NCBI GenBank assembly: GCA_963697085.1
Contig: CAVOMR010000002.1
Coordinates: 145,913-209,912, forward strand
Reading direction: 5' to 3'
Source of the DNA: Candidatus Dormiibacterota bacterium
Lineage (GTDB): Bacteria > Chloroflexota > Dormibacteria > Aeolococcales > Aeolococcaceae
DNA length: 64,000 nucleotides
Part shown: piece by piece, positions 47,599 through 54,357 of the stretch
Position numbering within the stretch: position 1 is the stretch's first letter
Layout: each line of letters starts with the position of its first letter
Notes under the pieces: generated by a model
Seen by the model: only the letters and a program-made list of their open reading frames with translations
Told to the model about the DNA's origin: nothing
Database searches by the model: none
Made by a program: the position numbers and the translations under genes

Positions 47599-48993
47599 AT
47601 GCAGCCATCCGCCCTCACGACACTCGGCTACATGCTGACCGCGATCAGCTTCATGTTCGGCATCCAGCTGCTTCGCTCACCTGCGACAGCGCGAACCGGG
47701 AATCGCGTTGCGGCAGTGGGCATGTTGCTCGTCCTCGGCATCACGGCGGCCCTCATCCACAACACCGGCAACTGGCCGCTGATCATTCCGCCGATCGTCA
47801 TTGGCGCGCTCATCGGCGCGGTGTCGGCGCGGCTCGTGCGCATGACCGCGATGCCCCAGATGGTCGCGCTCTTCAACGGCATGGGCGGTGGCTCTGCAGC
47901 GTTGATCGCGGCGCAGGATTTCCGCACCGCGGTGGCGCACAACGTCGCAACGCCGGACCTCACCTGGGCCATCATGGTGAGCTGCGTCATCGGCTCGCTG
48001 AGCTTCGCCGGCAGCCTGGTCGCGTTCGCGAAGCTGCAGGAGCTGATGCCCGGGCGGCCGCTGACGTACCGGCTCCAGAGCGCAGTCAACGGATTGCTGC
48101 TCGTCGTGATCATCGCACTCGGCGTCTACCTGATCGTCGGTGATCAGAACCTCGCGCTCTTCATCGTCTTCATCGTCCTCTCGCTGCTCCTCGGCGTCCT
48201 GTTCGTGGTGCCGATCGGCGGCGCCGACATGCCGGTGATCATCTCGCTCCTCAACTCGTTCACCGGGCTTGCGGCGGCAACCACCGGCTTCGTGCTGAGC
48301 AACGACGTCCTGATCGTCAGCGGCGCGCTCGTCGGAGCCTCGGGAACCATCCTCACGCTGGCGATGAGCAAGGCGATGAACCGCTCGCTGTTCAACGTGC
48401 TCTTCAGCGGCTTCGGCTCGAAGGTCGAGGCCGTCGGCAGCGCCGCCGGCGCGGAGGGCGGCACCATCCATCCGACGACCGTCGAGGACCTCGCTCCGCT
48501 GCTCGCCTTCGCGCAACTCGTCATCTTCGTGCCCGGGTATGGCATGGCGGTTGCTCGCGCCCAACACGAGGTGAAGGAGCTTGCCGACGAACTGGAGAAG
48601 CGTGGCGTGACCGTCGAGTACGCCATCCATCCAGTCGCCGGCCGTATGCCCGGCCACATGAACGTGCTCCTCGCTGAAGCCAACGTGCCGTATCCGCAGC
48701 TCAAGGAGATGGACGCGGTCAACGGCGACTTCCCGCGCACCGATGTCGCTGTCGTCATCGGCGCCAACGATGTCGTGAACCCCGCGGCTCGCACGCAGAC
48801 CAGCAGCCCGATCTACGGGATGCCGATACTCGACGTCGACCAGGCGAAGACGGTCGTCGTCCTCAAGCGCAGCATGGCGACGGGGTTTGCCGGCGTCGAC
48901 AATCCCCTTTTCTACAAGCCGAACACGCTCATGCTGTTCGGGGACGCGCGCACCTCGGTTGCCGCACTGGTCGCCGAGGTCAAGAAGCAGTAG
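47599..48993 (+). CDS. pntB: NAD(P) transhydrogenase subunit beta
   Basis: MTAMPQMVA, IGGADMPV, PGYGMA, HPVAGRMPGHMNVLLAEA. Confidence 0.96.
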   Translation: MQPSALTTLGYMLTAISFMFGIQLLRSPATARTGNRVAAVGMLLVLGITAALIHNTGNWPLIIPPIVIGALIGAVSARLVRMTAMPQMVALFNGMGGGSAALIAAQDFRTAVAHNVATPDLTWAIMVSCVIGSLSFAGSLVAFAKLQELMPGRPLTYRLQSAVNGLLLVVIIALGVYLIVGDQNLALFIVFIVLSLLLGVLFVVPIGGADMPVIISLLNSFTGLAAATTGFVLSNDVLIVSGALVGASGTILTLAMSKAMNRSLFNVLFSGFGSKVEAVGSAAGAEGGTIHPTTVEDLAPLLAFAQLVIFVPGYGMAVARAQHEVKELADELEKRGVTVEYAIHPVAGRMPGHMNVLLAEANVPYPQLKEMDAVNGDFPRTDVAVVIGANDVVNPAARTQTSSPIYGMPILDVDQAKTVVVLKRSMATGFAGVDNPLFYKPNTLMLFGDARTSVAALVAEVKKQ

Positions 48994-49378
48994 GCGTCCT
49001 TCCGGTCGCGGCCACGCTGCGCAGCGCGTTGAGCAGGTCCGCCGGCGCCGTGTCCTTCACGACGTAGCCGACGGCGCCACTCTTCAGCGCCTCGACCATG
49101 CGCTCGTGACCGCCGAACGAGGTGAGCATCATCACGCGTGTTTGCGGCGCGCTCTCGACAAGGCGCCGCGTCGCCTCGATCCCGCCCATGCCGGGCATGG
49201 AAAGGTCCATCAGCACGACATCGGGATGGAGTTCCGCGGCCATCTCCAGCGATTGCTCTCCAGAGTCCGCGAGGCCGACCACCTCGATGTCCTGCTCATG
49301 GCCGAGGAATGACGCGAGACCCTTGCGGACAACGGGATGGTCGTCCACGATCAGGACGCGAATCTGCGCTTGGGGCAT
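48980..49378 (-). CDS. NarL-type response regulator, receiver domain only
   Basis: IVDDHPVVR, DVVLMDLSMP, LTS, GYVVKD; ends at 132 aa overlapping the pntB stop, with no HTH. Confidence 0.88.
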   Translation of the reverse strand: MPQAQIRVLIVDDHPVVRKGLASFLGHEQDIEVVGLADSGEQSLEMAAELHPDVVLMDLSMPGMGGIEATRRLVESAPQTRVMMLTSFGGHERMVEALKSGAVGYVVKDTAPADLLNALRSVAATGRTPTAS

Positions 49379-49390
49379 CCGAGATCCACT

Positions 49391-50896
49391 CTACCCGATG
49401 GGCAACATCAAGACGACGAGCGTGCCACGGCCGGGCTCGGAGTCGATCGTGAGCGTGCCGCCGGCCTCTTCGGCGAGGTCGACGATCGCTGACGTGCCAA
49501 GGTGATTCTCCGAGCGGCGGCGGGCGACATCCTCCGGCGTGAAGCCCCTGCCGTCGTCCTCGATGCTGAGGATCGCCGAGCCATCCTCGGTGACCAGCTC
49601 CACCTTCACGTTCTTCGCCTGCGCATGCGCCGCGACGTTGCGAAGCACCTCCTGGGCAACGCGGAAGATCAGCGCGGCGCGGTCCTTGCGCAACCGGAGG
49701 TTCGGAGGAAGGTCGAGGTATGTGTTGGTGCCCTTGCGCTTGATGTCGCGGAGCACCTCGAGAAGCGCAGCCTGGAGTCCTTCCCGTCGAAGTGTCGGCG
49801 GCGCGAGGTCGATGATCAGCGTTCTCAGATCCTTCATAGCGCCTCGCGTCTCCGTCGCCGACCGCTCGAGGAGCTCGAGCAGTTCCCCGTTGCCGTTCAT
49901 CCCGTCCGGATGCGTCTTCAGGCGCGATGCCTCAGCGGAGAGCTCGAGAGCCAGGCCGGCGAGGTTCTGGACGACACCGTCATGAAGATCGCCTGCGATC
50001 TTGGTGCGCTCCTTCTCGGAAGCCTCGGCCTCCTTGATCAGCAGCTCCTCGCGTTCCTTCTGATGGGCGATGCGCTCGACCTCGATCGCATGCGACTTGT
50101 TCGCAAAGATGATCAGGTAGATGTGGAGAACGATGATCGGTGAAAGCAGCGCCAGGAATCCGACCGTTTGCTTTGTCGCCATCACGACAAACGCGAAGGC
50201 GGCGAAGCCATAGGCGATGCTGTACGGCATGACGCTGAGACGTGGTCGCAGTGCGCGCGCGATCGATATCTTGGAATCCGACAGGTGCACCACCACCGCG
50301 ACGAACCCCGAGTTCACCGCGAAGTGGACGAATCCTGCGGCCAGCCCCGCAAGGAGCGGTCGCCAGGTCCCTTCCACCTGTAACCCCTTCGCCGTCTCCC
50401 CGCCATTGATCGCGATGAAGACGGCCCATGCGGCCACGTTGGCGAGGAAGTGATTCGACATGTTGAAAAACGTGCGAACCCATCCGTTCCGGTTGCGGAT
50501 GCTGACGCCGGTGGACTCGGCGACCGCTCCCACCGCAGCACCCACAGGCCCGAAGACGACTGACAGGCCAAGGTGCACGAAGGTGGTCGGGACCCAGGAG
50601 ATGTTGATCATCCGGATCGCGTACACGGACATCAGGAAGATCGCCAGACCGCCGACCGCGAGCGTCGCGGGATCCAGCGGCACTCTCACCGTGAATGCGG
50701 TGACCACCGCTGCGCACGCCGCAGTGAAGTACGTCCCGACGACGTAGGTGATCAACTCCGGCGTGTAGACAACGGGCCCGAGCGCGGGCGGCGTCGGCAG
50801 GAGGTTGTTGAGACGGCGAACCTGCGTCCACACTGCATGCGTCCACGAACGCGAGGGTTCCTCTCTCACATTCGGCGCGACGGCATCCTGCGCCAT
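49391..50896 (-). CDS. HisKA_3 sensor histidine kinase with multi-TM (MASE-like) input domain
   Basis: About 7-8 TM N-terminus; ERTKIAGDLHDGVVQ H-box, QEVLRNV N-box, DDGRGF, DSEPGRGT. Confidence 0.92.
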   Translation of the reverse strand: MAQDAVAPNVREEPSRSWTHAVWTQVRRLNNLLPTPPALGPVVYTPELITYVVGTYFTAACAAVVTAFTVRVPLDPATLAVGGLAIFLMSVYAIRMINISWVPTTFVHLGLSVVFGPVGAAVGAVAESTGVSIRNRNGWVRTFFNMSNHFLANVAAWAVFIAINGGETAKGLQVEGTWRPLLAGLAAGFVHFAVNSGFVAVVVHLSDSKISIARALRPRLSVMPYSIAYGFAAFAFVVMATKQTVGFLALLSPIIVLHIYLIIFANKSHAIEVERIAHQKEREELLIKEAEASEKERTKIAGDLHDGVVQNLAGLALELSAEASRLKTHPDGMNGNGELLELLERSATETRGAMKDLRTLIIDLAPPTLRREGLQAALLEVLRDIKRKGTNTYLDLPPNLRLRKDRAALIFRVAQEVLRNVAAHAQAKNVKVELVTEDGSAILSIEDDGRGFTPEDVARRRSENHLGTSAIVDLAEEAGGTLTIDSEPGRGTLVVLMLPIG

Positions 50897-51186
50897 GCGA
50901 CCGATCCTATGCCGCGTGGCGAGAACGAAGCGTTCTGCGTGACAGGATTGTCAGCGACAGCATGACAAAAGCCCTTTGCCTGCTTGCGTTTGACGCGTTA
51001 GAGACAATCATTGCATCAATCGCGTCAGAGAACGAAACGCGTCACTTTCAGCGAAGAAATGTGAATGCGTATTCAGCACGATGGTCTTAAGCCTTGAAAT
51101 GCGCAGCAGCGTTACAGTACGCGCAACAGCAACCGCACTGTGGGTTGGGTCTCAAGCTACCCACGGCGCATTTAAGGAGTACACCA

Positions 51187-51219
51187 ATGGCAAGTTGGGG
51201 CGACGGCGACAACTGGTAA
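51187..51219 (+). CDS. Micro-peptide ORF 1: MASWGDGDNW (10 aa)
   Basis: TAAGGAG SD at 51173-51179, 7 nt before ATG; TAA stop; hairpin follows; shares a motif with micro-ORF 2. Confidence 0.65.
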   Translation: MASWGDGDNW

Positions 51220-51229
51220 CTAGTCGTAT

Positions 51230-51253
51230 CCGGGCTTCACTGTAGAGGCCCGG
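51230..51253 (+). terminator. Hairpin after micro-ORF 1
   Basis: CCGGGCTTC-actgta-GAGGCCCGG; no U-tract. Confidence 0.5.
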
Positions 51254-51465
51254 TGTGACGAAGCTTTGGATGATTTCGTGACGACCCGATAGCGGGTCGA
51301 TCGCGTCATTGTCACGGAGGGGCCGGGTCATTCTGGCCGCCGGGTGCGCAACCTGCGCATTCGGCTCCGGTTTGGCGGGCACGCGCGGGCGCATTTTCGG
51401 CTCCGTTCTGACGGGTGTGCGCGTACGCTTGACGACGCACACCAACTCTCCTGGAGGAGCTGACG

Positions 51466-52680
51466 CTGATCCCTTCGGCGGACGCGCCCTCGGCACCCAG
51501 AACGCACGGAGTAGCTTCAAACGAAGCTCTCCGGCTGCTCATCGGGTCGGGCACATCCTCATACGGCGACTGGCTCACGACGGTGGCGTTGCTCGTTCTG
51601 CTGTTTCGGCTGACGGGCTCCTCCGTCGGGCCGGCCGTGTACATGCTCGCGCGTGTCGCACCGAAGGTCGTGGGCCCGTTTCCGGGCGGCGCCCTCGCCG
51701 ATCGGTTCGGGCCCGCCCGCGTTGCCGCGACCTGCGCGTGCGCGCAGGCGATCCTCACCGCGTCGATCGTCGTGTTCGCCGACAACCGCGCAATCTGGCC
51801 GATCTACATCGCGGTGGCGCTCGCGCAGCTCTTCGGCTCGGCGGCGCAGCCCTGCTACAGCGCCCTCATCCCCCGCGTCACGTCCCCTGAGAGCCTCGGA
51901 CGCGTCCAAGGGATCTACTCGGCGCTGAGCAACTCGAGCATCCTCGTCTCGCCGGCGTTTGGAGCGCTGGTCCTGCCGTTCACGACTCCCCAGGTGCTCA
52001 TCGGCTTCGATGCGGCGACGTTCGTCGTTGCCGCGGTGATGATCGGCACCCTCACCGGCGTCAGCGGGGGAAGCTCCGAGCCACTGTCCGCCCGTGGGAT
52101 GTCGGCGGGGATCCCCGTGGTGCTCGGCGACCCGATGCTCCGTTTCCTCACCGCTGCGTACGTGTCGAACGCGGCTGCGGTCACCGCCCTGCAGGCCGTG
52201 CTCGTCGTCGCCGCAGCCCAGCGCTTCGGGCACGACACCGCGGTCGGATGGCTGTACGCCGCGGTCGGCGCCGGCTCCTTGCTCGGCACGCTCCCGGTGA
52301 TCCGCAGGACACCCCGGCGCGTGAACACACTCCCGATCGTGGCGGCCACGGCCGTCGAGCTCGTCCCCCTCGCGCTCTTCGTCTTCATCGGAGTCCTCCC
52401 GATCGCGGTCGCGCTGCTCTTCGTGAGCGGTCTCGGGGCGGCCCTCTACCAGACCCGCGGCGTGATCGGCCTGCAGCAGCGCGTGCCGCAGCAGTTGCTC
52501 GGCCGGACCATGGCGGTCATCCGGTCCGCACAGTACCTCGGGATGCTCGCCGGGGCCCTTGCGGCAGTGGTCATCGTCCAGCCGCTCGGCTGGGAGGCCA
52601 CCGTCCTCATCGTCTGCGCGCTCGGGGCGACGCTGCTCTTCTTCACCGCGGTCACCGAGGGACGCGGCACCCAGGGCTGA
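51466..52680 (+). CDS. MFS transporter (DHA3/MefA-like exporter), probable CTG start
   Basis: 12-TM pattern, SSYGDWL in TM1, motif A GALADRFGPARV. TM1 lies upstream of the first GTG. GGAGG at 51453-51457 precedes an in-frame CTG. Confidence 0.85.
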   Translation: MIPSADAPSAPRTHGVASNEALRLLIGSGTSSYGDWLTTVALLVLLFRLTGSSVGPAVYMLARVAPKVVGPFPGGALADRFGPARVAATCACAQAILTASIVVFADNRAIWPIYIAVALAQLFGSAAQPCYSALIPRVTSPESLGRVQGIYSALSNSSILVSPAFGALVLPFTTPQVLIGFDAATFVVAAVMIGTLTGVSGGSSEPLSARGMSAGIPVVLGDPMLRFLTAAYVSNAAAVTALQAVLVVAAAQRFGHDTAVGWLYAAVGAGSLLGTLPVIRRTPRRVNTLPIVAATAVELVPLALFVFIGVLPIAVALLFVSGLGAALYQTRGVIGLQQRVPQQLLGRTMAVIRSAQYLGMLAGALAAVVIVQPLGWEATVLIVCALGATLLFFTAVTEGRGTQG

Positions 52681-52876
52681 GCTCGCCACGGTACCCTTCC
52701 GGTGGCGGCAAAGCTGCGTATCGATCCGCAAAGAGTTATGAATTTTCAGCCGATCTTTGTAAACCTGGTACCTGGCGTGCCTGGCGCGGGAGCGCGGCGA
52801 GCCGCATCGTCTGCGAGGCCAGTCTCGGCACAGATACACCGAGGCTACCCGGTGCCGGCGGAACATGGAGGCAGAG

Positions 52877-52903
52877 ATGGCGGACGGCGTTCAGTGGGGC
52901 TGA
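52877..52903 (+). CDS. Micro-peptide ORF 2: MADGVQWG (8 aa; an in-frame ATG at 52865 would give MEAEMADGVQWG)
   Basis: GGAGG SD at 52867-52871, 5 nt before ATG; TGA stop; hairpins follow. Confidence 0.6.
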   Translation: MADGVQWG

Positions 52904-52919
52904 GCCCGACTTCCTAGGC

Positions 52920-52992
52920 ACCCGAGCGAGGCTCGGGTTATGTGAACCCGTTGGCGCGACGTCGCGGATAACCCGGCGTCGCGTTCCTTTTC
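52920..52992 (+). terminator. Two hairpins after micro-ORF 2; the second is terminator-like
   Basis: ACCCGAGC-gag-GCTCGGGT (52920-52938). GCGCGACGTCG/CGGCGTCGCGT (52954-52984) followed by TCCTTTTCT. Confidence 0.55.
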
Positions 52993-53015
52993 TCGCTCTG
53001 GGTTAGGGAGCACAT

Positions 53016-54357
53016 ATGCCGATCGACACCGCACGGTTCTCCCCCAGAGCCGCGACCGTCCGGCCACAGGCCGACCGGTCCGCGCGTCTGCTGCTGGCCG
53101 CCGGTGTTTCCACCTACGGCGACTGGCTGACGGTCGTCGCGCTTGCCGTGCTCCTCTTCCGTCTCACGCACGAGCCCGAGGCGCCGGCGCTCTACGTGCT
53201 CTTCAAGGTCGCCCCGCGCGTGCTCGGGCCGGCTCCCGGCGGCTACCTCGCCGACCGCTTCGGTCCAGGCCGCGTCGCCGGGTGGAGCGCGCTGGCGCAG
53301 GGCCTGCTGACAGGCGCCATCGTGGCCGCCGCGGCTGCCGGCGCTGTCTGGGCGATCTTCGCCGCCGTCGCGATAGCCCAATTCCTCGGGTCGATGGGGC
53401 AACCCGGGTACAGCGCAGCCATTCCCCGCGTCACACGCCCCGACCGCCTCCTGCGCGTCAACGCGATCTACAGCGGCCTCTTCGAGTTCGAGCGTGCTCG
53501 CGGCGCCGGCGATCGGCGCGCTCCTGCTCGCGGTGATGCAACCACAGACGTTGATCGCGTTCGACGCCGCGTCCTTCGCCGTGGCGGGCGTGCTCATGTT
53601 CTCGCTCCGGGTCGGCCCCGCCCCGCGGAGGTTCACCGCGGCATCGCGCTCGGCATCGGCGGCGGCCTTCGTGTTCCGCGATCCCATGCTCCGCTCCCTC
53701 GCCGCATCATTCTTCTGCAGCGCGGCGCTGGTCACGGCCCTCCAGGGAGTCCTCGTCGTCGCTGCGGCCGAGCGTTTCGGCCAGGACACGAACGTCGGGT
53801 TTCTGTACGCGGCGGTGGGCGCGGGAGGCGTTGCCGGGAGCCTGGTCCTGCTCCGCTGGAGGCCGCCGCCGATCAGCGCCCGGGGGATCGCGATCGCGTT
53901 CGTGCTCGAGAACGTCCCGCTCGGCCTCTTCGCAGTGGTCGGCGGCCTGGTGCCCGCGCTCGCCCTGCTGGCGTTCAGCACGGCGGTCGGAGCGCTCTAT
54001 CAGACCAGGGGGCAGACGGCGCTCCAGCAACGCGTTCCTGCGGAGATCCTCGGCCGGGTCAACGGCGTGATGCGCCTGCTCCTCTACACGGGCATGCTCG
54101 TGGGGGCGGTAGTCGCGGTCGCGCTGGTCGACGAGCTCGGCTGGAGCACGCTCATCGCCGGCACCGCCATCGCGGCGATCGCGCTCTACGCGGTCCTCCT
54201 GCTCACGTTGCAGCTCGTGGTCCGGAGTCCCGACGAGGTCTCGCTCGCCGGCACCCCGTTGCCGCAGTTCTCGGATCACGCCGCGCCCGCCTCACGGGCC
54301 CCGTTTTCGATCGGAAGGCCGGCCGAGCTGCCCCACTCGCTCCAGGATCAGTCGTAG
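53016..54357 (+). CDS. MFS transporter, paralog of 51466-52680, with one +1 frameshift
   Basis: STYGDWL, GYLADRFGPGRV, DPMLR, LYAAVGAG and ALYQTRG shared with the paralog. Removing one T at about 53487 restores FESSVLAAP. Confidence 0.85.

What the first reader, a model, noticed from the sequence alone, without database searches (positions are those of the whole stretch)
48980..54357. Candidate micro-peptide signalling/export system: two Trp-Gly micro-ORFs, each paired with an MFS paralog, divergent from a membrane histidine kinase
Seen: the module [strong SD - tiny ORF - hairpin(s) - MFS transporter] occurs twice in tandem. Peptide 1 is MASWGDGDNW (51187-51219) and peptide 2 is MADGVQWG (52877-52903). 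Both start MA and share DG-x-[NQ]-W and WG, and a GCTACCC heptamer lies about 25-30 nt upstream of each ATG. The two MFS genes are paralogs, so the peptide appears to have been duplicated with its transporter. Divergently placed are a HisKA_3 kinase with an all-membrane input domain and a receiver protein. Established: peptide + exporter + HK/RR is the layout of Gram-positive quorum sensing (agr, comQXPA), though those use longer precursors and a processing enzyme. Inference: leaderless 8-10 aa peptides may be exported by dedicated MFS proteins and sensed by the kinase. From memory and unverified, similar Trp-Gly units occur as C-terminal repeats of S8 proteases next to this kind of membrane sensor, so these may be free-standing versions. 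Standard gene callers would miss both ORFs.
Basis: partly seen in the sequence, partly recalled or inferred. Interest (0 to 1): 0.88.

Follow-up and report, generated by a model that had tools for sequence, protein, structure and literature searches.

The report
Trp-ended micro-ORFs before MFS genes
Two tiny conserved genes of 8 and 10 codons, each ending in or next to tryptophan, sit in front of two transporter genes beside a membrane sensor kinase in an uncultured soil bacterium, and they are either regulatory leader peptides or, less likely, a new kind of directly translated peptide signal.

Summary
Both micro-ORFs lie at the stated coordinates. uORF1 is kept in 19 of 19 relatives found through the MFS protein alone; uORF2 or a close variant is kept in 19 of 20.

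The lineage is Candidatus Dormibacterota. In one family I found four classes of SD-led ORFs of 6-14 codons. All have Trp last or second-last. All lie directly upstream of a DHA3-like MFS gene linked to one family of HisKA_3 kinases. The kinase is either divergent, with a REC-only regulator, or in an operon uORF-MFS-RR-HK.

The spacers to the MFS genes are long, structured and far better conserved than synonymous sites.

My best reading (about 0.5) is cis-acting leader peptides that control MFS expression through ribosome pausing near the Trp/stop. It gains from a side finding: a secreted S8 protease with a C-terminal (G-x-x-W-S)n tail sits beside a GGDEF-EAL protein whose membrane domain is homologous to the kinase's.

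No experiment exists for this lineage, and no antiterminator was found.

The parts
48980..49378 (-). Receiver-only response regulator (132 aa)
   Evidence: Pfam Response_reg 1.5e-31 and no output domain. Orthologs end within 0-9 codons of the receiver domain, or at an aligned stop, in 18 of 18 loci where a stop was reached, of 20 examined.
49391..50896 (-). HisKA_3 histidine kinase (501 aa) with an N-terminal polytopic membrane domain of about 290 aa
   Evidence: HisKA_3 6.4e-11 and HATPase_c 1.2e-13. The N-terminal part has no Pfam hit. MASE9 is only a lead (0.88). The domain is homologous to the membrane domain of a GAF-GGDEF-EAL protein.
51083..51093 (.). GGTCTTAAGCC, half-palindromic motif in the divergent promoter region
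   Evidence: The TTAAGCC core is conserved. Full GTCTTAAGAC palindromes, 1-3 copies, lie upstream of uORF1 in other genera. Its function is not tested.
51174..51179 (+). Shine-Dalgarno of uORF1 (AAGGAG)
   Evidence: Seen. An SD lies 6-9 nt before the ATG in all 19 loci.
51187..51219 (+). uORF1, MASWGDGDNW-TAA (class A micro-ORF)
   Evidence: Consensus M-A-[STN]-W-G-D-x-[DEA..]-[NST..]-W-(G/T)-stop.
51230..51253 (+). Hairpin P1 with conserved loop CACUGUAG
   Evidence: RNAalifold on 32 sequences. Stem pairs show up to 16 of 32 double changes.
51262..51322 (+). Long hairpin P2 with near-invariant sequence blocks
   Evidence: covariation at 140:178, 141:177 and 155:162.
51339..51365 (+). Hairpin P3 (GCCGGGUGCGC..GCGCAUUCGGC)
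   Evidence: The pairs hardly vary, so the structure is neither supported nor refuted by covariation.
51466..52680 (+). MFS1, DHA3-like MFS transporter, probable CTG start
   Evidence: MFS_1 7.2e-24. TIGR00900 3e-39, below its cut-off. CTG start.
52867..52871 (+). Shine-Dalgarno of uORF2 (GGAGG)
52877..52903 (+). uORF2, MADGVQWG-TGA (class B micro-ORF)
   Evidence: 30 sequences, 17 distinct peptides, all ending W-[GAS]-(G)-TGA.
52896..52907 (+). Small hairpin H0 with the stop codon in its loop (GGGC-UGA-GCCC here)
   Evidence: mean energy -10.0 against -7.4 for shuffles. Only 7 of 27 sequences are individually at p<=0.05, so support is weak.
52921..52937 (+). Hairpin H1, followed by a T-enriched tract
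   Evidence: Covariation at 92:110 and 97:105. Mean 4.4 T in the next 10 nt against 1.6 expected.
52953..52995 (+). Hairpin H2 (15 pairs) with T-rich tail, terminator-like
   Evidence: The simple terminator scan did not call it.
53016..54357 (+). MFS2, paralog of MFS1, frame broken between about 53480 and 53515 in this assembly
   Evidence: It is intact in most relatives.

Best explanation
The micro-ORFs are translated leader peptides that act in cis.

**Proposed mechanism**
- Each MFS gene is transcribed with a long structured 5' leader that begins with an efficiently initiated ORF of 6-14 codons.
- A ribosome that lingers at the end of this ORF, at the terminal Trp codon or at the stop codon just after it, changes what happens to the leader. 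It alters how the nascent leader folds, or whether a termination factor can load on the C-rich tract after the stop.
- That in turn decides whether transcription and translation reach the transporter gene.

**Shown**
- The ORFs, their SDs and their conservation at peptide level.
- The conserved hairpins.
- The strong constraint on the leader.

**Inferred**
- Translation itself, the pause, its trigger and the direction of control.
- The trigger could be charged tRNA-Trp supply, or a small molecule acting with the nascent peptide as in TnaC or ErmCL.

The kinase and regulator form a second control layer or a co-sensing partner of the MFS.
For: 1. The micro-ORF is always directly 5' of an MFS gene on the same strand. 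This holds in four classes and two gene orders: class A in 30 loci plus other genera, class B in 30 sequences, class C in 18 of 18, and class D in 3 of 3. It is missing from 5 of 5 kinase loci that have no MFS.
2. The spacers are 110-300 nt and structured. P1, P2, H1 and H2 show compensatory or wobble changes.
3. Leader-1 nucleotide identity is 0.72 against 0.39 at four-fold sites of MFS1, where 0.335 is expected at random. The leader is the more conserved in 153 of 153 pairs.
4. In class B both hairpins are followed by T-enriched tracts, 4.4 and 4.5 T in 10 nt against 1.6 expected.
5. In class C the 24 nt after the stop hold 1-3 G and 9-12 C in 18 of 18 sequences. The predicted folds often pair the uORF's own SD with a downstream C/U-rich stretch.
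6. MFS1 keeps a weak CTG start.
7. One soil metatranscriptome holds a 169-nt contig with 1 mismatch that covers only SD+uORF1+P1+P2. This is a weak hint of an abundant short leader RNA.
8. There are precedents for very short arrest or leader peptides. I read passages of PMC11890864 on PepNL, a 14-aa peptide that stalls at UGA, relieved when Trp-tRNA reads through the stop. I saw only the search-listing abstracts of PMC4191407 (BmrB-BmrCD) and 10.1101/2021.11.29.470318 (MsrD leader).
Against: - I found no mutually exclusive antiterminator or anti-sequestor. In class B a ribosome at the stop would not reach H1, which starts about 19 nt after the stop (my reading).
- The simple scan called no terminator, and Rfam gave nothing.
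- The stop-codon hairpin is only weakly better than shuffles.
- Class-specific peptide conservation (WGD, NGW, HVDLD) is more than a Trp-codon sensor needs.
- trpE in this genome has no Trp leader peptide. There is therefore no sign of Trp attenuation as a habit of the lineage.
- This reading does not explain the conserved link with the kinase.
- It also does not explain the Trp-repeat protease tail beside a homologous sensor domain.
Confidence: 0.5

Rival explanations
1. Exported Trp-peptide signal. The micro-ORF products of 5-13 residues after start processing are the cargo of the adjacent MFS. They are sensed by the polytopic membrane domain of the kinase. Hairpins and weak MFS start codons serve to make much peptide and little transporter.
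For: - The four components travel together in two orders, including uORF-MFS-RR(NarL type)-HK, which is the layout of an autoinducing loop.
- Each paralogous kinase/MFS pair has its own conserved peptide class, and some genomes hold two systems.
- Conservation is at peptide level, with synonymous change.
- A homologous membrane domain (hhalign 95.3%, E 2.3e-8) sits beside a subtilase with a signal-peptide-like start whose tail is 8-15 copies of G-x-x-W-S. Two kinds of short Trp units thus lie next to one sensor-domain family.
- The short RNA contig over uORF1 alone also fits a highly expressed peptide gene.
Against: - I recall only one directly translated signal or antibiotic peptide under 12 aa, MccA, and it needs MccB.
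- There is no processing or modifying gene beside the module. The neighbours are PntB and a methyltransferase on the other strand.
- The regulator in this architecture is receiver-only.
- The peptides are hydrophilic and acidic.
- The strongly constrained 250-nt leader is not needed for this model.
- The micro-ORF follows the MFS and not the kinase.
- Four other paralogs of the sensor domain in this genome have no Trp feature nearby.
Confidence: 0.3
2. Pure Trp-codon attenuator. Only the UGG codons matter. The ribosome stalls when charged tRNA-Trp is scarce, through starvation or an inhibitor of TrpRS, and this switches the MFS genes.
For: - Trp is the only residue shared by all four classes. 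It makes up 1-3 of 6-14 codons.
- Trp leader peptides that control operons are classical. The listing abstract of 10.1101/606483 describes trpL.
Against: - Most classes have a single Trp codon.
- Asp6, Gly5 and Asn-Gly are conserved as residues.
- There is no link to Trp genes, and trpE lacks such a leader.
- The proposed trigger and the role of an efflux-type MFS are guesses.
Confidence: 0.1
3. Intracellular peptide that binds the kinase or the MFS from the cytoplasmic or membrane side. This would be a small-protein modulator and not a secreted signal.
For: - The same co-occurrence data as above.
- The sensor domain is almost wholly membrane-embedded.
Against: - The peptides are hydrophilic and very short.
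- I recall no precedent at this size.
- Nothing here tests it.
Confidence: 0.05
4. RNA-only element. The 'ORFs' are not translated, and their conservation reflects RNA sequence or structure.
For: - The Gly5 codon is GGC in 36 of 36 sequences.
- TGGGGC is invariant in both uORFs of the genus.
- This suggests some nucleotide-level constraint.
Against: - An SD at the right distance and a start codon (ATG or GTG) are present in every class.
- The frame is intact throughout.
- Length changes come in whole codons (9-14 and 8-9 codons).
- Synonymous changes occur at Ala2, Asp6 and Gly11.
Confidence: 0.03

Closest known systems
TnaC / tna operon leader (E. coli)
   Same: A short leader ORF with a functionally key Trp. 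The ribosome is held at the stop codon. A C-rich site for the termination factor lies right after the stop, as in class C here. The downstream genes include a transporter. Details of tna are recalled; I saw only the listing abstracts of PMC8450073 and PMC8429421.
   Different: TnaC is 24 aa, with Trp 12 residues from the end and a terminal Pro. Here Trp is last or second-last in 6-14 aa. No stalling, no Rho dependence and no Trp response have been shown.
Drug-sensing leader peptides of resistance or efflux genes (ErmCL, CmlA/Cat leaders, MsrDL, BmrB-BmrCD)
   Same: SD-led ORFs of 6-19 codons plus hairpins or terminators upstream of an efflux or resistance gene. Peptide identity matters. I saw listing abstracts of PMC4191407 and 10.1101/2021.11.29.470318; the rest is recalled.
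   Different: No alternative structure was found here. The motif (small residue - W - G/S/D - stop) matches no stalling motif I recall. The module also carries a dedicated kinase.
PepNL (E. coli)
   Same: A 14-aa uORF that arrests at a UGA stop with no added inducer, with a link to Trp-tRNA (PMC11890864, passages read).
   Different: There is no sequence likeness. PepNL has no terminal Trp, and its arrest depends on a hairpin-shaped nascent chain.
MccA-MccC of microcin C (recalled)
   Same: A 7-codon ORF translated directly, followed by a hairpin, in an operon with an MFS exporter.
   Different: MccA needs the adenylating enzyme MccB and a C-terminal Asn. No such gene was seen beside this module, and the peptides end in W, G, S or D.
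Peptide quorum sensing with polytopic kinases (agr, ComX-ComP; recalled)
   Same: Peptide gene, exporter, polytopic kinase (ComP is HisKA_3-type) and regulator in one locus. Trp is the key residue of ComX.
   Different: Those precursors are 40-55 aa and need AgrB or ComQ. Here there is no leader and no processing gene, the exporter is an MFS, and in this architecture the regulator is receiver-only.
UhpB-UhpC (recalled; UhpB appears among the NCBIfam hits)
   Same: A HisKA_3 kinase with a polytopic membrane domain that works with an MFS protein as co-sensor.
   Different: There is no micro-ORF in uhp, the MFS subfamily differs, and nothing here shows contact between the two proteins.

Membership tests
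Ribosome-mediated attenuation / leader-peptide control | SD-led short ORF in the 5' leader, same strand, upstream of the controlled gene | tested here: met
Ribosome-mediated attenuation / leader-peptide control | Terminator or SD-sequestering hairpin between leader ORF and gene | tested here: inconclusive
   H1 and H2 have T-enriched tails in class B. The simple scan called none. Class A has no clear U-tract, with a mean of 3.1 T after P3.
Ribosome-mediated attenuation / leader-peptide control | Alternative (antiterminator) pairing that a paused ribosome would favour | tested here: not met
   None was found by inspection or by RNAalifold. This was not an exhaustive search.
Ribosome-mediated attenuation / leader-peptide control | Ribosome pause on the leader ORF that changes downstream expression | not testable with these tools
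   The lineage is uncultured. There is one metatranscriptome contig only.
Gram-positive peptide quorum sensing (agr/com type) | Precursor with leader, plus a dedicated processing or export enzyme | tested here: not met
   The ORFs are 6-14 codons. The neighbours are PntB and a methyltransferase, and the exporter candidate is an MFS.
Gram-positive peptide quorum sensing (agr/com type) | Polytopic sensor kinase with a DNA-binding regulator in the locus | tested here: inconclusive
   The kinase is present. The regulator is receiver-only in this architecture and NarL-type with an HTH in the operon architecture.
Microcin C-like system | MccB-type adenylyltransferase next to the tiny ORF, and a C-terminal Asn | tested here: not met
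   No such Pfam hit among the neighbours tested. The peptides end in W, G, S, D or A, with Asn in one class C locus.
DHA3 family of MFS (TIGR00900) | Score above the curated cut-off | tested here: not met
   135.4 bits against a cut-off of 319.6. Pfam MFS_1 is above its cut-off. EntS, Tet(V), Tap and Mef(A) match only weakly.
HisKA_3 histidine kinases | HisKA_3 dimerisation domain plus HATPase_c | tested here: met
   43.1 and 51.9 bits, both above their cut-offs.
MASE9 membrane sensor domain | Match to PF20972 | tested here: not met
   No Pfam hit at E<=10. There is only a feature-based lead of 0.88.

The most novel reading that the evidence does not exclude
One family of Dormibacterota may use short unmodified Trp peptides as signals, and these would reach a shared membrane sensor domain by two routes.
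- **Route 1:** peptides of 5-13 residues are translated directly from micro-ORFs and exported by a dedicated DHA3-like MFS. They are sensed by HisKA_3 kinases.
- **Route 2:** G-x-x-W-S pentapeptide units are carried as a tandem tail on a secreted subtilase. They are sensed by, or tethered to, a GAF-GGDEF-EAL protein with the homologous membrane domain.

The micro-ORFs could at the same time act in cis on the MFS leader.
Probability: 0.3. Interest if true: 0.9.

Novelty: new variant of a known kind. Interest (0 to 1): 0.7.

Why it matters
**If the leader-peptide reading holds**
- This is a new, family-wide set of very short regulatory ORFs with a defining terminal Trp, in a phylum with no cultured members.
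- It comes with a ready comparative data set: four classes and more than 80 sequences. That set can be used to study how ribosomes are held near a stop codon.
- It also shows that gene callers miss both the micro-ORFs and the CTG start of MFS1.

**If the signal reading holds**
- It would be the first peptide signalling built on leaderless, directly translated peptides exported by an MFS.
- It would assign a ligand class to an uncharacterised membrane sensor domain found in kinases and c-di-GMP enzymes.

Tried and rejected
**Searches and scans that gave nothing**
- An Rfam scan of 50800-53100 at E<=10 found nothing relevant.
- The promoter and terminator consensus scan gave 0 and 0.
- A scan of the own genome for further SD-led ORFs ending W or W-x with a stop-codon hairpin found one hit. 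It is probably inside a gene, and my strict rule did not recover uORF2 itself.
- I looked for a Trp leader before trpE and found none. The gene follows another gene directly.
- ESM Atlas and Pfam on the kinase N-terminus gave only a MASE9 lead.
- A BLASTP of the kinase N-terminus against the GGDEF-EAL N-terminus gave E 0.059. Only the profile comparison was clear.
- Literature searches for Dormibacterota with leader peptide, small ORF or two-component terms turned up nothing on this module. This is one search of the held library only.

**Structure tests that were weak or negative**
- The stop-codon hairpin test was weak.
- I looked for an antiterminator in class B by eye and with RNAalifold and found none.

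**RNA evidence**
- One run held a small share of the stretch. One near-identical 169-nt contig lies over the leader, and one contig from a relative lies over the 3' end of MFS1. Parts without cover say nothing.

**Kinase loci without an MFS**
- Three short ORFs (MKGLWR, MRRWL, MGGRPW) turned up in 2 of 5 such loci. I judged them chance because they are not conserved and fit no class.

**Steps not attempted**
- I did not try complex prediction or structure prediction, because the peptides are far under the 30-residue minimum. I did not try a partial Mantel test of peptide-kinase co-variation, because the peptides are too short.
- I did not use supplements of papers.


Full report
**What is at the locus**

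The window region reads as follows.
- On the minus strand lie a receiver-only protein (48980-49378) and a 501-aa HisKA_3 kinase (49391-50896).
- On the plus strand lie uORF1 (51187-51219, MASWGDGDNW), MFS1 (51466-52680), uORF2 (52877-52903, MADGVQWG) and MFS2 (53016-54357).

- MFS1 has no canonical start before its first helix. A CTG follows GGAGGAG by 6 nt. By my pattern this CTG is kept in 17 of 19 relatives, and 11 of those 17 have no in-frame ATG, GTG or TTG upstream.
- MFS2 changes frame between about 53480 and 53515 here but is whole in most relatives. The break is either a young pseudogene or an assembly error.

Source names of homologs place the lineage in Candidatus Dormibacterota / Dormibacteria.

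**Are the micro-ORFs real?**

I fetched 20 loci from same-genus genomes by similarity to the MFS1 protein only.
- uORF1 is present in all 19 loci that include the upstream region. Its pattern is M-A-[STN]-W-G-D-x-x-x-W-(G/T)-stop.
- uORF2, or a W-A/W-S variant, is present in 19 of 20. One locus has no MFS2.
- The kinase lies divergently beside MFS1 in 19 of 20. The last locus is cut short.

Among 36 distinct leader sequences collected with a pattern that fixes M, A, W, G, D and W, the free positions behave like a coding sequence.
- Ala2 uses all four codons.
- Asp6 is GAC 15 / GAT 21.
- The optional Gly11 uses all four codons.
- Gly5, however, is GGC in 36 of 36, a sign of some extra nucleotide constraint.

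The pattern with its SD was searched in one genome for each of 185,579 species and gave 43 stretches.
- Thirty are 10-11-codon ORFs, and all 30 have the MFS and/or the kinase beside them.
- Thirteen lie inside long ORFs in unrelated taxa with neither gene.

In a 401-genome sample of the phylum the ORF pattern hit 4 genomes. The reversed control pattern hit 3.

**A wider family of Trp-ended micro-ORFs**

The kinase's membrane domain occurs in 94 of 117 genomes of the family, in 16 of 22 genera. In the phylum sample it occurs in 13 of 17 family members and 0 of 384 others at E<=1e-8. I read the DNA around such kinases in other genera.

- **Class A (divergent kinase).** Variants include MANWGDVGGWG, MASWGDSATWG, MASWGDNYGWG, MASWDNFGWG, MASWDNDSW, MGSWGIRLDWCRWA, MGTWDTQCSCWSWG and MASWNSQCQHYGWA. 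These more distant loci have a single MFS. uORF2 plus MFS2 (class B) therefore looks like a duplication within the genus.
- **Class C.** The operon is micro-ORF - MFS - regulator - kinase. The micro-ORF has six or seven codons, M-x-(x)-N-G-W-[SGDN]-stop, in 18 of 18 such loci. The regulator there is a full NarL/LuxR type.
- **Class D.** This is a further divergent kinase/MFS pair in the same genomes. Its micro-ORFs are MAHVDLDQLDW, MSHVDFDWLDW and MAHVDLDNLSW.

Five of 5 kinase loci without an adjacent MFS have no convincing micro-ORF. One MFS-kinase locus in another genus (L117) has none either.

The common denominator is an SD-led ORF of 6-14 codons with Trp last or second-last, directly 5' of the MFS.

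**The leaders**

Class A leader (32 sequences):
- It carries a hairpin right after the stop with a conserved loop and covarying stem.
- It also carries a long second hairpin with some covariation and a third that hardly varies.
- Between lineages whose four-fold sites in MFS1 are near saturation (identity 0.39, random 0.335), the leader keeps 0.72 identity. The leader is higher in 153 of 153 pairs.

Class B leader (27 sequences):
- It has two hairpins with compensatory or wobble changes.
- Each is followed by about 4.5 T in 10 nt, against 1.6 expected from genome composition.
- A small hairpin that puts the stop codon in its loop recurs, but it beats shuffles clearly in only 7 of 27 sequences.

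Class C leader:
- The 24 nt after the stop are G-poor and C-rich in 18 of 18 sequences.
- Predicted folds often pair the micro-ORF's own SD with a downstream stretch.

Negative results. Rfam and the simple terminator scan gave nothing. I could not find an antiterminator.

**RNA evidence**

One soil metatranscriptome holds a 169-nt contig, with one mismatch, over 51174-51330. This span covers the SD, uORF1 and the first two hairpins and nothing of the MFS1 body from this organism. Contigs cannot show transcript ends, and DNA carry-over is possible. I treat this only as a hint of an abundant short leader RNA.

**A side finding that bears on the signal reading**

In this genome one subtilase has a signal-peptide-like start and ends in about eleven copies of G-[AS]-S-W-S. 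A 904-aa protein with a polytopic membrane domain, GAF, GGDEF and EAL follows 48 nt later.

- The pair is kept in 30 of 30 same-genus loci.
- It is kept in 13 of 20 further loci. The repeat unit differs by genus (GTSWS, GVSWS, GSTWS, GGGWS, GGQWS, GAAWS).
- It is absent in 3 of 3 loci of one genus, in 1 locus of another, and in 3 within-genus paralogs.
- A profile comparison shows that this membrane domain is homologous to the kinase's (95.3%, E 2.3e-8, 166 columns).
- Four other copies of the domain in this genome have no Trp feature nearby.

**Weighing the readings**

For the cis reading:
- The fixed place of the micro-ORF at the head of the MFS leader.
- The strongly constrained structured spacers.
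- The T-rich or C-rich tracts.
- The weak MFS1 start.
- The fact that nearly all known ORFs of this size and place are leader peptides (recalled; examples).

For the signal reading:
- The four-part module is kept in two gene orders.
- Each kinase/MFS pair has its own peptide class.
- The second Trp-peptide source lies beside a homologous sensor.

Against the signal reading:
- This locus has a receiver-only regulator, which holds in all 18 orthologs where a stop was reached.
- There is no processing gene.
- Precedent is lacking.

The two readings are not exclusive. The listing abstract of 10.1101/606483 describes a Trp leader peptide that also acts in trans. I put the cis reading at about 0.5 and the exported signal at about 0.3.

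**Limits**

- All counts across relatives are phylogenetically dependent.
- Class A counts from pattern searches fix the conserved residues by construction. The independent set is that.
- Several genomes are incomplete MAGs.
- Tallies include unpublished genomes.

Noticed in passing
G000 contig C3, L148:7197-8780 (+) and L148:8829-11543 (+), outside the window: A secreted-looking S8 subtilase ends in about 11 tandem G-[AS]-S-W-S units. It is followed after 48 nt by a membrane-GAF-GGDEF-EAL protein. The pair is conserved across at least 10 genera, with a genus-specific repeat unit. Its membrane domain is homologous to that of the kinase in the finding.
   Followed up: partly
window 51466 (and L002-L018): MFS1 appears to start at a conserved CTG behind a strong SD. 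Gene callers in public sources give lengths from 320 to 439 aa for its homologs.
   Followed up: partly
window about 53480-53515: There is a frame change inside MFS2 in this assembly. Similar splits of MFS1 or MFS2 occur in a few relatives (G002, G004, G007, G020). I could not tell decay from assembly error.
   Followed up: no
window 51373-51410: This genome, L022 and L015 carry an extra copy of about 40 nt that repeats the 3' half of hairpin P3 (GCGC..CATT..CGGCTCC).
   Followed up: no
window 51083-51093; L021/L096, L062, L064, L065 upstream of uORF1: The palindrome GTCTTAAGAC, present in 1-3 copies, lies 80-150 nt upstream of class A micro-ORFs in several genera. It is a likely operator of an unknown regulator.
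   Followed up: no
window 48980-49378: The receiver-only regulator is much better conserved (72-95% identity) than the kinase (40-82%) or MFS1 (53-89%) across the same loci.
   Followed up: no
L060, L065 (public records): Two contigs that carry the module are labelled Candidatus Saccharimonadales and Candidatus Acidiferrales in their records. The module's gene identities match Dormibacterota, so these contigs may be mis-binned.
   Followed up: no
L117 (G263, another genus): A third layout: the MFS gene sits directly upstream of a longer kinase-like open frame of about 840 aa on the same strand, with no micro-ORF.
   Followed up: no
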